From the NCBI RefSeq assembly GCF_004353825.1, contig NZ_SMNA01000003.1, positions 1 to 64,000 of the forward strand: a stretch of DNA of 64,000 bases, given 5' to 3'. The DNA is from Occultella glacieicola (GTDB taxonomy: Bacteria; Actinomycetota; Actinomycetes; Actinomycetales; Beutenbergiaceae). A model generated the notes under the pieces. It saw nothing but the letters and a program-made list of their open reading frames with translations, searched no databases and was not told the origin of the DNA. The translations under genes were made by a program, and so were the position numbers. Shown here in pieces: positions 2,867 through 5,772 of the stretch; position 1 is the first letter of the stretch, and each line of letters begins with the position of its first letter.

Positions 2867-4356
2867 GGGCGTGTCAGATGGTCTGTGTAAGCGGTTCCGG
2901 GAGTGAACTGGAGCATGGACATGACTGCGATGGAGCAGAAGCAGGAGAGTGAGTCGTCGTTCGGTGCGGTCTCGTCTGGGCCGGCGACGGCGCGGGAGAC
3001 GGTGAACGCGATGGTCGGTGCTGGCCTGTTCGATCACGTGATCGCTCGTGCTGCCGATGGCGAGCTCACGCTGACGGGTCCGGGGGGTTCCTGCCGGAGA
3101 TGGTCCGAGCGGTCCTGGAGGCCGGTCTGGCGACCGAACTGAGTGATCACCTCGGTGATGAGAAGGGCGACCCGGCCGGTCGGGGGTCGCCGAACTCCAG
3201 GAACGGATCCACCCCGAAGACGGTCGCGACCGAGGTCGGCGACGTGGCGCTGGCGACCCCGCGGGATCGGGCCAGGACGTTCACCCCGCGCCTGGTGCCC
3301 AAGGGCGCCCGCCGGGTCGGTGGTCTGGACGAGATGATCATCAGCCTCTACGCGGGTGGGATGACGGTCCGCGACATCGGCCATCACCTCGCCGCGACGC
3401 TCGGGACCGAGCTCTCCCCGGACACGATCAGCAACATCACCGACACCGTCACCGCGGAAGTCATCGCGTGGCAGAACCGGCCGTTGGAGGCGATCTACCC
3501 GATCATCTACATGGACGCGATCGTGGCGGGAGATCCGCGACGGCGCGCACGTGAGCAACCGGGCCGCGCACATCGCCGTCGGCGTCGACCTGGACGGCGT
3601 CAAGCACGTCCTGGGGATCTGGATCCAGGCCCACGAGGGCGCGAAGGTCTGGGCCGGGTCTGCGTCAAACTGGCCAACCGGGGCGTCAAGGACGTCCTGA
3701 TCGTGTGCTGCGACGGGCTGAGCGGGTTCCCCGAGGCGATCGAGGCGACCTGGCCCCAGACGACCGTGCAGACCTGCGTGGTGCACCTGATCCGGGCCGC
3801 GATGCGGTTCGTGTCCTACAACGACCGCAAGGCCGTTGCGGCCGCGCTGCGCCCGATCTACACCGCCTCCAGCGCCGATGTCGCCGAGACCGAGCTGGTC
3901 ACCTTCGCCGACTCCAACTGGGGCAAGAAGTACCCCGCGGCGGTCGCGACCTGGACCAACGCCTGGGAACGGTTCATCCCCTTCCTGGCGTTCCCGCCCG
4001 CGGTGCGCAAGATCATCTACACCACGAACTCGGCCGAGTCGCTGAACTTCCAACTGCGCAAGATCATCAAGAACCGCGGCCACTTTCCCTCCGACGAGGC
4101 CGCCACCAAGCTGCTCTGGCTGGCGATCATGAACATCGAGGACAAACGGGCCCGAGAACGCGCGAAGGAACGCGGCAAGCCCGCGAACAAGCGCAAAGCA
4201 CCCGGCCGCCTCGTCGAGGGCCAGACCGTCACCGGCTGGACCGCCGCCCTGAACGCCCTCGCGATCGCTCACCCCGAACGCCTCGCCGGCTACCTCATCT
4301 GACACCAAAGAAACCAAGCAAGTGGAAATCACTTACACAGAAGACTTGACAGGCTC
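2867..4356 (+). mobile_element. IS256-family insertion sequence, degenerate
   Basis: Imperfect terminal IRs GGGCGTGTCAGATGGTCTGTGTAAG (2867-) vs reverse complement of right end GAGCCTGTCAAGTCTTCTGTGTAAG (-4356), 19/25 identical; no target duplication visible. Confidence 0.9.
2921..4302 (+). pseudogene. IS256 transposase with three frameshifts
   Basis: Motifs NSRNG..K, PRDR..TF.P, YMDAI, CCDGL.GF, QTCVVHLIR, IYTTN..ESLN; frameshifts near 3082-3087, ~3528 and ~3657. Confidence 0.88.
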
Positions 4357-4561
4357 GCCTGCGGGTCAGGTGCCGGCAGTCCTCCAGGGCGAACCGCACC
4401 CCGTGCTCGTCGTGGTCGCGGAATTGTGCCGACCACTGCACCAGGGCCAGATGTCCCTCGGCGTTGGTGCGAACGGTCTTGGTGGCCAACCGTCTGCCGA
4501 CCTCGTCCAGCGCCACCACGGTGTGTGTGCGCTTGTGGGAGTCGGTGCCGATCATGACCAT
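4357..4561 (-). pseudogene. IS110 recombinase N-terminal fragment (~68 codons)
   Basis: GxDxHK motif and ALED; ends at IS256 right IR. Confidence 0.85.
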
Positions 4562-4599
4562 GCGGGCAACCTCCAGATCTCGTCTCGGGAACTCGGGCA

Positions 4600-4779
4600 C
4601 CCTGGCGCCAGCGAGACGAGCACGCCTCAATCCAGCACGACCTCCGTCGCAAGCAGGCTCCTATCAAGCCACGCACCCGCTGGCGCCAGGGCACCCGGCC
4701 GAGGCCGCACATCGGGGACAAGCCACCGAGCACCAGCGCGCGCCGAGGCAGCGAAGAAACGAGCGAACCCCGGCCGGGT
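4600..4779 (-). ncRNA. Putative IS110 bridge RNA (target-binding and donor-binding loops)
   Basis: 14-bp stem 4600-4613/4678-4691 and 12-bp stem (one G-U on minus strand) 4693-4704/4768-4779, each closing a large internal loop; loop sequences match the flanking target and the element's own end. Confidence 0.75.
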
Positions 4780-4800
4780 ACCACTCACTGTGGCATTGAC

Positions 4801-5137
4801 GCGAAGAAAGTTGTTGCGGCCTTCAGTACGGCCACGTCCTCGCGCAACCGACGGTTCTCGGCCTTCAGCCGCTTGATTTCCTCGTGCTCCTGGCTGCTGA
4901 CTCCCTCGCGGCGTCCGGCGTCGACCTCTGTCTGGGTGACCCATCGGCGCACCGACTCCCGCGAGACGCCCAACTGCTTCGACACTGCGACCATCGCCTC
5001 GGTCACCGACGGATACTCCTGCTGGTGCTCACGCACCAACCTGACGGCTCGAGCCCGCAACTCGGGATCAATCTTCTTCGGCATGTGCTCATCCTCCTGG
5101 ACTCAAACAGGAGCGGCATCAAACCTGGGGCGCTTCA
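4801..5137 (-). mobile_element. IS3-family element, left IR plus orfA only, interrupted by IS110
   Basis: IRL 5'-TGAAGCGCCCCAGGTTT at 5137; orfA (ATG 5084) MPKKIDPELRARAVRLV...LKAENRRLREDVAVLKAATTFFA (HTH + leucine zipper); orfB absent. Confidence 0.88.
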
Positions 5138-5772
5138 TACATGATCAGAGCCGCTTTGCCGCAGGTGCGGGCCGAGTGCGCCAAACTTGCCGTCGCGAGC
5201 GTGTCGCGGTAGTCACGCTCATGGCAGCGCTTCAACGACCGGAACAACGTCCGAAGACTCGGACACGGGGCACCGATCTCGGCCAGCACCCGGACCGTGT
5301 CAGCCTTCGAGGTCGGCTCAATGATCCGCGCGAGCGCCATCGCCGCGAACGCCTCATCACCCAGGGCATCGAAACCCAGATGCACGTACGCGTCCGTCAG
5401 CACTTCCCAGAGCAAGCGGCTTCGAGTCGCCGCCACACGAGCACCCACCCCCGAGCTGCCGCCGGGATCCGGGCCAAGGTCAAGGACCCCCTGCCCCGGA
5501 CGCAGCCGCTGCCGGGCGATCTCCATCTACAGCGCGAGTTGGGCCTCATCGTGAGCCGAGCCGATGTGCTCGATGCCCGTGACCTGCCGGCCCTGCTTAT
5601 GCACGATCTGGACCGCCCGCGCCCCCGAGGCCGTGGGCACCTTCCGCACGAACGAAGCCACCAGCCGAGGCTACAACCCCGAATTAGTCACCCCGAACGA
5701 CCCCCAGCCCGACCATCACCGCAGGTCACAGCCCCGCGCACCACCCCGACCCCGAAAGTGGCACGAGTCAGG
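5138..5772 (-). mobile_element. IS1634-family element, left end plus 5' transposase pseudogene, interrupted by IS3
   Basis: GTG 5661: ASFVRKVPTASGARAVQIV..IEHIGSAHD..ARIIEPTSKAD..LIMY; in-frame TAG at 5527-5529; probable end CCTGACTCGTGCCAC at 5772. Confidence 0.78.

What the first reader, a model, noticed from the sequence alone, without database searches (positions are those of the whole stretch)
4600..4809. IS110 bridge RNA whose target guide appears programmed against the IS3 orfA/orfB junction
Seen: two stem-closed internal loops in the IS110 left end. The 5' loop (minus strand) contains TTTCTTCGC (plus GCGAAGAAA 4751-4759), identical to the 9 nt flanking the insertion (4801-4809), and on its other side TCCCCG (4713-4718), which predicts a right target C-GGGG(A). 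The 3' loop contains GATAGGAGC (4657-4665, putative left donor guide, also ending in GC) and ATTGAGGC (4624-4631), which pairs 7/8 with the observed junction GCGTCAAT. Knowledge: this matches the LTG/RTG/LDG/RDG layout of IS110 bridge RNAs such as IS621, here with a GC core rather than CT. Actinobacterial IS3 orfA genes commonly end FFAGELD (TTCTTCGCGGGGGA), near the orfA/orfB frameshift region. Inference: an RNA-guided IS specialised to insert into, and inactivate, another IS family.
Basis: partly seen in the sequence, partly recalled or inferred. Interest (0 to 1): 0.85.

Follow-up and report, generated by a model that had tools for sequence, protein, structure and literature searches.

The report
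Dead RNA-guided IS110 inside an IS3
A broken copy of an RNA-guided jumping gene (IS110 family) sits inside another jumping gene (IS3) at exactly the spot its own guide RNA spells out, and its relatives in many Actinobacteria sit at that same spot; the mechanism and this kind of target are already known, only this particular site appears to be new.

Summary
GCGAAGAAA occurs twice in the window (4751-4759, 4801-4809; 0.07 expected), and the 4562-4799 minus strand folds into two stem-closed internal loops.

It is the left end and first 68 codons of an IS110-family element. The element lies in the end of an IS3 orfA and is itself cut by an IS256-like element, so this copy is dead.

Of 81 related loci, 51 of 56 readable left junctions and 51 of 62 readable right junctions lie at the same IS3 site, TTTCTTCGCG^G..GAGCTCGAC or ^AAGGAGACC. 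One element, 99.7% identical in two genomes, sits in IS3s only 49-57% identical. These are repeated targeted insertions.

The guide layout fits the IS621/ISEc21 bridge (seek) RNA. The fold is supported by covariation. The right donor guide tracks the left-end sequence in 59 of 60 loci.

Uninterrupted IS3 copies show an exact insertion with no shared or duplicated dinucleotide.

It is not new in kind. ISEc21 (Siddiquee 2024) is an IS110-type element aimed at IS3 transposase genes, at another site. This scan also noted IS110 elements in IS3 sites on other DNA. I class it as a new member of a known kind, of moderate interest.

The parts
4800..5084 (-). IS3-family orfA, 5' part of the target element; ends ...AATTFFA at 4800, where it is interrupted
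   Evidence: Pfam HTH_Tnp_1, E 2.5e-6. NCBIfam IS3 family transposase, partial, 39 bits. ORF list. It is the only copy in the genome.
4801..4809 (-). Left target: TTTCTTCGC on the minus strand, the Phe-Phe-Ala codons of orfA. It is identical to the left target guide.
   Evidence: The same 9-mer flanks 24 of 58 relatives exactly; most of the others differ by one base.
4562..4799 (-). IS110 left end (non-coding), encoding the bridge RNA
   Evidence: 81% nucleotide identity over 444 nt to the full-length element in L002. Two-loop fold.
4787..4792 (-). CACAGT, a -10-like hexamer (CAnnnT is conserved). With TTGACA in the right end of intact relatives it would form a promoter with a 17-nt spacer if the ends are abutted in a circle.
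   Evidence: Conserved columns C9, A10 and T14 in A1. Right ends read CTTGACATAGGAGCATC. The promoter itself is inferred by analogy with IS621 and ISEc21 (PMC11208158, PMC11187229).
4693..4780 (-). Target-binding loop module: outer stem, internal loop, inner hairpin
   Evidence: Helices 1 and 2 (97.6% and 100% paired). Covariance model R1 scores it 74.6 bits, but the window row was in the training set.
4751..4759 (-). Left target guide, UUUCUUCGC
4710..4721 (-). Right target guide plus handshake-like extension, UUGUCCCCGAUG. Its reverse complement is CATC + GGGGA + CAA.
   Evidence: CATC equals the last 4 nt of the right end in 49 of 55 relatives. GGGGA equals the right flank in the matching IS3 subfamily.
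4597..4692 (-). Donor-binding loop module
   Evidence: Helices 3-6.
4657..4665 (-). Left donor guide, GAUAGGAGC. It matches ATAGGAGC near the right end of intact relatives. The right end itself is missing from the window.
4624..4631 (-). Right donor guide, AUUGAGGC. Its reverse complement GCC+TCAAT reads the first 5 nt of the left end (4795-4799).
   Evidence: The right-donor 5-mer equals the guide 5-mer in 59 of 60 loci, with three covarying variants.
4357..4561 (-). IS110 recombinase gene, first 68 codons only
   Evidence: ORF; aligned to P0001. The fragment alone gives no Pfam hit. P0001 has DEDD_Tnp_IS110 + Transposase_20 and NF033542 at 166.5 bits against a cut-off of 140.
2873..4349 (+). 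IS256-like (Mutator family) element with a frameshifted transposase. It truncates the IS110; the ends are approximate.
   Evidence: Pfam Transposase_mut, E 1.9e-87. Terminal TCTGTGTAAG repeats read.

Best explanation
The window holds a fossil of an IS110-family, bridge-RNA-guided insertion sequence of about 1315 bp when intact. It landed in the orfA/orfB overlap of an IS3 element, between the Ala codon of ...FFA and the next codon. An IS256-like element later cut it; the rest of the recombinase gene, the right end and the IS3 orfB are absent from the window.

In intact relatives, the RNA made from the left end has two internal loops.

Target loop:
- Its 5' side (UUUCUUCGC) has the sense of the target's top strand, so it would pair with the bottom strand of TTTCTTCGC.
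- Its 3' side pairs with about five bases of the top strand just right of the crossover (GGGGA here).
- Its next four bases pair with the element's own last four bases (CATC) once these are joined to the target. This is a handshake-type arrangement.

Donor loop:
- It reads ATAGGAGC near the right end and TCAAT at the left end.

The target is a nucleotide stretch conserved across several IS3 subfamilies, and U residues in the guides allow G.U wobble. The clade can therefore hit many different IS3 elements and split their transposase genes.

Shown: the anatomy, the conserved fold, the guide/flank matches and the repeated independent insertions.
Inferred by homology with IS621 and ISEc21: that the RNA is made, binds the recombinase and directs the strand exchange.
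For: Identity of the element:
- A full-length relative (L002) is 81% identical over 444 of 448 query bases, starting at the first base after the junction.
- Its 356-aa protein has DEDD_Tnp_IS110 + Transposase_20. It passes NCBIfam 'IS110 family RNA-guided transposase' at 166.5 bits against a cut-off of 140.

Same site in relatives (81 loci: the best 80 of 503 relatives, plus L002):
- 51 of 56 readable left junctions and 51 of 62 readable right junctions carry the IS3 motif. Both do in 40 of the 51 loci where both are readable.
- 41 of 44 left flanks translated hit HTH_Tnp_1.
- 40 of 54 right-flank longest ORFs hit rve, rve_3 or HTH_21.

Independent insertions:
- L002 and L016 elements are 99.7% identical over 1315 bp, while their flanks are 57.0% and 48.8% identical.
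- At least four IS3 orfA subfamilies are hit.
- In one metagenome run the element has two different left contexts (records 16 and 17).

RNA fold:
- 35 pairs, 20 with compensatory changes.
- 94.2% of cells paired against 82.3% in shuffles, 0 of 500 reaching it.

Guides:
- The left-guide 9-mer equals the flank, twice in the window against 0.07 expected.
- Left guide versus left target: 8.17 of 9 against 7.99 when permuted; 3 of 10000 permutations reach it.
- L032 and L163 changed their guide together with a Tyr-codon flank.
- The right donor guide tracks TCAAT / TCAGT / TTAAT in 59 of 60 loci.
- A distant plasmid relative (L164) has a different flank, a right end ending AAAC, and a right-target guide extension that changed to AAAC with it.
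- Off-target insertions still resemble the guides: L025, L066 and L092.

Precedent: ISEc21, an IS110-type element with an upstream non-coding region and a 358-aa transposase, is guided by its seekRNA into IS3 transposase genes without a duplication (PMC11187229, passages read). It is 31% identical to P0001.
Against: - Covariation between the right target guide and the right flank is weak in an ungapped test. It gives 3.46 of 6 matches against 3.22 permuted, reached by 118 of 10000 permutations; for unique pairs, 319 of 10000.
- Many elements sit at targets with 1-3 mismatches in these six bases. Several lineages need a one-base bulge to align.
- No dinucleotide is shared by target and donor at the crossover, unlike IS621.
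- No expression or circle data: Logan contigs of three runs and raw reads of one showed no right-end-to-left-end joint.
- Rfam holds no matching family.
- The window copy itself cannot be tested on its right side. Its right end and right flank are absent from the window, and the genome holds no second copy of this left end or of this orfA.
- Loci were picked by protein similarity and many are related, so counts are not independent events.
Confidence: 0.88

Rival explanations
1. IS621-type exchange at a shared GC core. Target TTTCTTC-GC-G... and donor ...ATAGGA-GC-... recombine at GC, which then flanks the element on both sides.
For: The left target guide and the left donor guide both match 8-9 bases that end in GC: UUUCUUCGC against TTTCTTCGC, and GAUAGGAGC against CATAGGAGC.
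Against: Uninterrupted IS3 copies read TTTCTTC + 6 nt + GAGCTCGAC in 57 of 61 pattern matches from 201 genomes and in the same genome as an interrupted copy.

The two flanks of the insertions add up to exactly that sequence. The crossover therefore lies one base after GC in the target and three bases after GC in the donor, and nothing is duplicated.

L025 shows the same thing against a neighbouring repeat unit. The third base after TTTCTTC varies like a codon third position (GCG, GCC, GCT, GCA, GTG), so it belongs to the target.
Confidence: 0.05
2. Hitch-hiking. One ancient insertion into one IS3 was then spread as a composite, so the shared site reflects descent, not targeting.
For: Some pairs have similar elements and similar flanks, for example L014/L053 (92.6% element identity, 81-83% flank identity).
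Against: Elements 99.7% identical sit in IS3s 49-57% identical. Four orfA subfamilies are hit. There are two contexts within one run. Non-IS3 insertions occur at look-alike sites (L025, L066, L092). An interrupted IS3 has a split transposase gene and, by inference, is unlikely to move itself.
Confidence: 0.03
3. The site is chosen mainly by protein or DNA-structure recognition, for example the GC-rich inverted repeat just right of the crossover. On this view the RNA loops contribute little on the right side.
For: Right-guide/right-flank matching is loose. The right flank begins a GGCGG...CCGCC inverted repeat: 89.7% of cells paired, with one CG-GC swap in 7 of 31 sequences. A 2026 preprint reports a sequence-plus-structure requirement for another IS110 element (10.64898/2026.03.19.712850; search listing and abstract start only).
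Against: RNAalifold did not predict that hairpin. AAGGAGACC-type targets and off-targets lack it yet are used. The left guide and both donor guides match precisely and covary.
Confidence: 0.08

Closest known systems
ISEc21 of Escherichia coli (IS110 type; seekRNA; Siddiquee et al. 2024, PMC11187229; locus L154 here)
   Same: - Upstream non-coding region encoding the guide RNA, and a transposase of similar length (358 against 356 aa).
- Its natural target is a conserved coding stretch of IS3-family transposase genes.
- It inserts without a target duplication.
- TTGAC lies near the right end.
- In L154 the 3'-side guide segment also reads the last bases of the element's right end plus the right flank (my reading).
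   Different: - Only 31% protein identity.
[quoted passage not shown] This clade targets the end of orfA in the frameshift overlap.
- Different hosts: Enterobacteria against Actinobacteria.
IS621 bridge RNA system (Durrant et al. 2024, PMC11208160; Hiraizumi et al. 2024, PMC11208158)
   Same: - Two internal loops in the order target loop then donor loop.
- Left guides have the sense of the top strand; right guides are complementary to it.
- An extension of the right guides pairs with the partner DNA after strand exchange (handshake guides).
- A promoter split between the right and left ends.
   Different: - IS621 has a CT core present in target and donor and read by all four guides. Here no shared core is visible.
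- The handshake-like extension is four bases, not two.
- The IS621 recombinase is shorter: 326 residues in the domain map of PMC11208158.
- The natural IS621 target is not IS3. That it targets REP sequences is recalled, not checked here.
IS4321/IS5075 and IS1111-attC elements (IS1111 group)
   Same: Site-specific elements of the wider IS110/IS1111 group that home to conserved sequences of other mobile elements. The attC targeting of ISKpn4 and ISPst6 is stated in PMC11187229. Targeting of Tn21-family inverted repeats by IS4321/IS5075 is recalled, not checked.
   Different: They belong to the IS1111 group, with the non-coding region downstream and subterminal inverted repeats. Their targets are transposon ends or integron attC sites, not IS3 coding sequence.

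Membership tests
IS110 family (IS110 group, RNA-guided DEDD recombinase) | Recombinase with a DEDD/RuvC-like N-terminal domain and a Transposase_20 C-terminal domain | tested here: met
   P0001, the full-length relative, has PF01548 (E 5.4e-22) and PF02371 (E 2.5e-17). It scores 166.5 bits on NF033542 against a cut-off of 140. The window keeps only 68 codons, which give no Pfam hit on their own but align to P0001.
IS110 family (IS110 group, RNA-guided DEDD recombinase) | Long non-coding region upstream of the recombinase gene that folds into two stem-closed internal loops | tested here: met
   35 pairs, 20 compensatory, 94.2% paired against 82.3% in shuffles, 0 of 500 reaching it.
IS110 family (IS110 group, RNA-guided DEDD recombinase) | First loop carries segments matching the left flank (same sense) and the right flank (complementary) | tested here: met
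   The left guide is exact in the window and in 24 of 58 relatives; most others differ by one base. The right guide averages 3.46 of 6 ungapped matches and is only weakly better than permuted pairs (118 of 10000). The window's own right flank is lost.
IS110 family (IS110 group, RNA-guided DEDD recombinase) | Second loop carries segments matching the element's right end and left end | tested here: met
   The right donor guide matches in 59 of 60 loci with three covarying variants. The left donor guide matches ATAGGAGC in relatives. The window's own right end is missing, so only the right donor guide can be checked in the window.
IS110 family (IS110 group, RNA-guided DEDD recombinase) | A core dinucleotide shared by target and donor and flanking the inserted element (IS621 model) | tested here: not met
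   the insertion is exact with no repeated bases. The two bases before the crossover are CG (target) and TC (element). This matches the duplication-free insertion reported for ISEc21 (PMC11187229), so it argues against the IS621 detail, not against family membership.
IS110 family (IS110 group, RNA-guided DEDD recombinase) | Promoter assembled across the joined ends of a circular intermediate | tested here: inconclusive
   TTGACA lies 10 nt from the right end and CAnnnT lies 7 nt into the left end, giving a 17-nt spacer if the ends abut. No circle joint was seen in the 4 runs laid.
IS110 family (IS110 group, RNA-guided DEDD recombinase) | RNA is expressed, binds the recombinase and is required for transposition | not testable with these tools
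   No suitable RNA run.
ISEc21-like subgroup (Siddiquee et al. 2024) | Transposase of 345-385 aa clustering with TnpEc21 | tested here: inconclusive
   The length fits (356 aa), but identity to TnpEc21 is only 31% and no tree was built.
ISEc21-like subgroup (Siddiquee et al. 2024) | [quoted passage not shown] | tested here: not met
   The target here is the end of orfA (FFA|), upstream of the HTH_21 and rve domains.
Rfam RNA families | Match to a curated covariance model | tested here: not met
   Only two chance-level microRNA matches, E 2.9 and 7.4.

The most novel reading that the evidence does not exclude
In a Streptomyces branch of this clade (L082-L085, L090, L161) the left end carries a second, degenerate target-loop module upstream of the normal one.

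The 3' side of the extra module is conserved. It reads the element's right-end bases plus AAGG(A/G), the right flank of the FFAKETR-type IS3. The normal module reads GCCGA, the FFAAELD/GCC type.

The six elements are found in both kinds of IS3:
- L082 is in the GCC type.
- L083, L090 and L161 are in the AAG type.
- L084 and L085 have left flanks of the AAG type.

The boldest reading not excluded is a natural bridge RNA with two alternative right-target guides, which widens the host range of one element to two IS3 subfamilies. This would work together with top-strand-only insertion that needs no shared core.
Probability: 0.22. Interest if true: 0.65.

Novelty: new member of a known kind. Interest (0 to 1): 0.45.

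Why it matters
The finding adds a widespread actinobacterial clade to the known cases of RNA-guided IS110 elements that home into other insertion sequences. Relatives occur in Ornithinimicrobium, Nostocoides, Kribbella, Serinicoccus, Brachybacterium, Dietzia, Streptomyces and Rhodococcus plasmids, among others.

The chosen site is the IS3 orfA/orfB overlap. It is constrained in two reading frames, so it is conserved at the nucleotide level across IS3 subfamilies. This makes a multi-copy landing pad that is probably harmless to the host (inference), and each insertion splits an IS3 transposase gene.

The clade also gives natural data for engineering bridge recombinases:
- guides that tolerate G.U wobble and 1-2 mismatches;
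- a four-base handshake-like extension;
- insertion without a shared core;
- natural retargeting of the left guide (Tyr-codon flanks) and of the whole target (L164).

None of this changes the known mechanism.

Tried and rejected
- **Rfam scan of 4200-5200**: only chance microRNA hits.
- **Other copies in the window's genome**: none of the IS110 left end and none of this IS3 orfA. The pre-insertion site therefore had to come from other genomes.
- **Core and boundary parses** I worked through and rejected against intact IS3 sequences: a TC core with the left end starting GCG (it needs a 3-nt shorter target, seen in 0 of 61 pattern matches), a CG core, a GC core, and a CT core spanning the abutted ends.
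- **RNAalifold on 31 intact IS3 sites**: it did not predict the GGCGG/CCGCC hairpin. A direct count gives only modest support.
- **Circle joints or expression**. Three runs held as contigs and one held as raw reads were laid. No right-end-to-left-end joint was found, and the raw-read run had 3 reads on the stretch. Contigs drop rare forms, so this says nothing about whether circles exist.
- **Covariance model of the target loop** (R1). It finds the normal module in 13 of the 15 sources searched (59-77 bits) but not in L154 (ISEc21) or L164. It finds the extra Streptomyces module significantly in only 1 of 6 elements (L090, 23 bits, E 0.004; the others score 8-13 bits, E 0.5-7).
- **More Streptomyces members**: 351 genomes gave only 2 further loci, and only 2 candidates per genome were scored.
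- **Not run:** a gapped version of the right-guide/right-flank test, so the bulged pairings I describe (GGACGAG against GCCGAG, and others) are read by eye.
- **Literature searches** listed no paper on an IS110 element aimed at the IS3 orfA end. The supplementary target tables of PMC11208160 were not opened and may list this cluster.

Full report
**What is in the window**

All elements below lie on the minus strand unless stated.
- An IS1634-like transposase fragment lies at 5119-5526 (NCBIfam NF033559, partial).
- It is followed by an IS3-family orfA at 5084-4800 (HTH_Tnp_1). This orfA stops being IS3 after ...AATTFFA.
- From 4799 downward the sequence is the left end of an IS110-family element. 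It has 238 non-coding bases (4799-4562) and then 68 codons of the recombinase (4561-4357).
- The recombinase is cut by an IS256-like, Mutator-family element on the plus strand at about 2873-4349 (Transposase_mut, E 1.9e-87).
- The rest of the IS110, its right end and the IS3 orfB are absent from the window.

The genome holds no second copy of this left end or of this orfA. The copy is therefore dead. What can be learned comes from its anatomy and its relatives.

**The observation**

GCGAAGAAA occurs only at 4751-4759 and 4801-4809 in 64 kb, against 0.07 expected. The left end folds into two long stems, each closing an internal loop. For the single sequence this is only mildly better than shuffles (z = -2.37).

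**Relatives**

A genome of the same family (G033, locus L002) has a full-length relative. It is 81% identical over the left end and gene start, and the match begins at the first base after the junction. It also lies in an IS3, at the same codon. Its 356-aa protein has DEDD_Tnp_IS110 and Transposase_20. It passes NCBIfam 'IS110 family RNA-guided transposase'.

A scan of one genome per species found 503 stretches encoding relatives. The best 80, at 54-100% identity, were kept. For these plus L002:
- The left junction was readable in 56 loci, and 51 show T(T/A)(T/C)(T/C)TT(C/G)G(C/T)N.
- The right junction was readable in 62 loci, and 51 continue with ...GA(G/A/C)CT(C/G)GAC or AAGGAGACCCGGTGA.
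- Both junctions were readable in 51 loci, and both motifs are present in 40.
- Of 44 left flanks translated (those with at least 40 stop-free codons, out of 59), 41 hit HTH_Tnp_1. The exceptions are L031 (short), L066 (Abi_2) and L092 (none).
- Of 54 right-flank longest ORFs, 40 hit rve, rve_3 or HTH_21. The other 14 are: L015, L084 and L085 (another IS110 recombinase); L025 (radical SAM); L065 (DUF4185); L066 (Abi_2); and eight with no family.

Plasmid records add a Rhodococcus and a Streptomyces example in IS3, the latter with an annotated IS3 transposase downstream. They also add a Mycobacterium plasmid relative at a non-IS3 site.

**Independent events, not one inherited composite**

- The L002 and L016 elements are 99.7% identical over 1315 bp, but 240 bp of flank on either side are 57.0% and 48.8% identical.
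- The left flanks fall into at least four orfA types, each with its own right flank: GGGGAG, GCGGAG, GCCGAG and AAGGAG.
- In one activated-sludge run the element has two different left contexts.
- Insertions outside IS3 lie at look-alike sequences. L025 is in a repeat unit reading TTCGTCGCG|GGGGACCCC, L092 at GGTTTCTTCGCC|GTCGAC, and L066 inside an Abi_2 gene.

**Exact site**

Uninterrupted IS3 copies in 201 genomes of the window's order read TTTCTTC + 6 nt + GAGCTCGAC in 57 of 61 pattern matches. The 6-nt forms include GCGGCG, GCGGGG, GGGGCG and GCGGCC. The genome of L031 holds such intact copies beside interrupted ones.

The two flanks of each insertion add up to exactly this sequence. The element, TCAATG...CTTGACATAGGAGCATC, lies between the Ala (or Val) codon and the next codon. 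No base is duplicated, and the boundaries cannot be shifted.

The base before the crossover varies like a codon third position (GCG, GCC, GCT, GCA, GTG), so it belongs to the target. In the -1 frame the sequence stays open into orfB. The site is therefore inside the orfA/orfB overlap.

It sits just before a GC-rich inverted repeat that may be the frameshift stimulator. That is an inference. The helix has 89.7% of cells paired and one CG/GC swap, and RNAalifold did not predict it.

**The RNA**

Forty-five distinct left ends align well (A1). The consensus fold has two modules with 35 pairs, 20 of them with compensatory changes. In one search:
- 94.2% of cells pair, against 82.3% in column shuffles (0 of 500 reach it) and 37-50% when partners are slid.
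- The inner hairpins differ completely in sequence and length between lineages but stay paired.
- The unpaired loop segments are the most conserved parts.

**Guides**

Taken from the table:
- The 5' side of loop 1 is UUUCUUCGC, identical in sense to the left flank.
 - Variants with U in place of C (UUUUUUCGC, UUUCUUUGC) still pair with the common flank through G.U wobble.
 - Variants that change a base otherwise go with a changed flank: L032 has UUAUUUCGC with TTATTTCGC, and L163 has UAUUUCGC with TATTTCGC.
 - Own pairs match 8.17 of 9 against 7.99 permuted; 3 of 10000 permutations reach this.
- The 3' side of loop 1, read as reverse complement, is CATC followed by about six bases.
 - CATC equals the last four bases of the element's right end in 49 of 55 loci.
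 - In L164 the right end finishes AAAC, and this segment is AAAC too.
 - The next bases resemble the right flank. The window has GGGGAC. All 8 loci whose orfA is of the window's type (LKAENxRLxED) have GGGGAG or GGGGAA.
 - Across all loci the ungapped match is only 3.46 of 6 against 3.22 permuted (118 of 10000; 319 of 10000 for unique pairs). Some lineages need a one-base bulge. The right guide is therefore a loose, consensus-like match.
- In loop 2 the 5' side, (G)AUAGGAGC, matches ATAGGAGC three bases before the right end.
- The 3' side of loop 2, reverse-complemented, is GCC+TCAAT. Its five bases equal the first five bases of the left end in 59 of 60 loci: 38 TCAAT, 19 TCAGT and 2 TTAAT. 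The one exception, L091, is a locus where my boundary call was wrong.

**How it compares**

The layout is that of the IS621 bridge RNA: loop order, strand sense of the four guides, and right guides extended by bases that pair with the partner DNA after exchange (PMC11208160 section 7; PMC11208158 passages). There is one clear difference. IS621 has a CT core present in target and donor and read by all four guides. Here the two bases before the crossover are CG in the target and TC in the element.

It predicts junctions that are not observed.

The absence of a duplication agrees with ISEc21, for which insertion 'without generating a duplication' and a circle with abutted ends were shown experimentally (PMC11187229). 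Two preprints report that other IS110 elements transfer mainly the top strand (10.1101/2025.10.25.684509) and excise a single-stranded circle (10.64898/2026.08.31.748434); I read the abstracts only.

Top-strand-only transfer would explain junctions that each keep their own two bases. This is my inference and is not tested here. If the ends abut, TTGACA in the right end and CAnnnT in the left end would be 17 nt apart, giving a promoter on the circle as in IS621 and ISEc21. This too is inference.

**Novelty**

Siddiquee et al. showed that ISEc21 targets a conserved coding stretch of IS3-family transposases, the second D of DDE. I fetched ISEc21 (L154); its transposase is 31% identical to P0001. 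An RNA-guided IS110 element specialised on IS3 is therefore published. What differs here is the clade, the hosts and the site.

Earlier notes of this scan describe IS110 elements in IS3 slippery sites and IS3 ends on other DNA. I did not test those. My literature searches listed no paper on this site. The supplementary target tables of PMC11208160 were not opened.

**Side lead**

Six Streptomyces elements carry an extra, degenerate target-loop-like module. Its 3' side reads ...ATCAAGG, the junction with AAGGAG-type IS3. Their normal module reads GCCGA.
- L082 lies in a GCCGAG-type IS3.
- L083, L090 and L161 lie in AAGGAG-type IS3s.
- L084 and L085 have left flanks of that same AAGGAG type.
- Single-module relatives with AAGGAC (L078, L069) or GCCGAC (L162, L165) sit in the matching type.

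The covariance model recognises the extra module significantly in only one of the six, and its 5' side does not match the left flank. A functional second right-target guide is possible but unproven.

Noticed in passing
window 2873-4349 (+), approximate ends: An IS256-like (Mutator family) element with a frameshifted transposase (ORFs 2903-3142 and 3100-4302). It truncates the IS110. The sequence left of it (2470-2870) is neither IS110 nor IS3, so the IS110 right part and the IS3 orfB are absent from the window, perhaps lost in a deletion at the IS256 end (inference).
   Followed up: partly
window 5119-5526 (-): N-terminal fragment of an IS1634-family transposase (NF033559, 36 bits, below cut-off) next to the start of the IS3. 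This gives a four-deep stack of insertion sequences: IS1634-like, IS3, IS110, IS256-like.
   Followed up: partly
L082-L085, L090 (about 2217-2310) and L161: Streptomyces relatives carry an extra, degenerate target-loop-like module upstream of the normal one. Its conserved 3' side matches the junction with AAGGAG-type IS3, while the normal loop matches the GCCGAG type. The elements occur in both IS3 types.
   Followed up: partly
L084 and L085, around 3570-4880: In two Streptomyces genomes the right end stops at ...CATAGGAG and is followed by a different IS110-family recombinase gene. This looks like another IS110-type element inserted into this element's right end.
   Followed up: no
L164 (Mycobacterium intracellulare plasmid NZ_CP015268.1), about 1480-2900: A 52%-identical relative sits at a non-IS3 site. 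Its left guide, right guide and the four-base extension (AAAC) have all changed together with its flanks and right end, a natural retargeting.
   Followed up: partly
L163 (Rhodococcus plasmid NZ_CP046574.1), about 1560-2900: This relative lies in an IS3 whose orfA ends AAAYFA. Its left guide reads UAUUUCGC, matching the Tyr-codon flank. Its right flank is AAGGAGGTGAAGTGA.
   Followed up: partly
L025 about 960-2330; L066; L092: Insertions outside IS3. L025 is in a short tandem repeat unit upstream of a radical-SAM gene, L066 is inside an Abi_2 (abortive-infection-like) gene, and L092 is in unannotated sequence. All three sites resemble the guide sequences.
   Followed up: partly
L129 (G229:C15), junction near locus position 1830: An IS3 orfA ends ...TTTCTTCGCG followed by only TCAATGT of the IS110 left end and then unrelated sequence. 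This is a stub left by a later rearrangement. The same genome has 32 matches to the IS3 query.
   Followed up: no
L030 and L065: The left flank is IS3 orfA, but the right flank is unrelated (DUF4185 gene in L065). This suggests recombination between element copies or deletions starting at the element.
   Followed up: no
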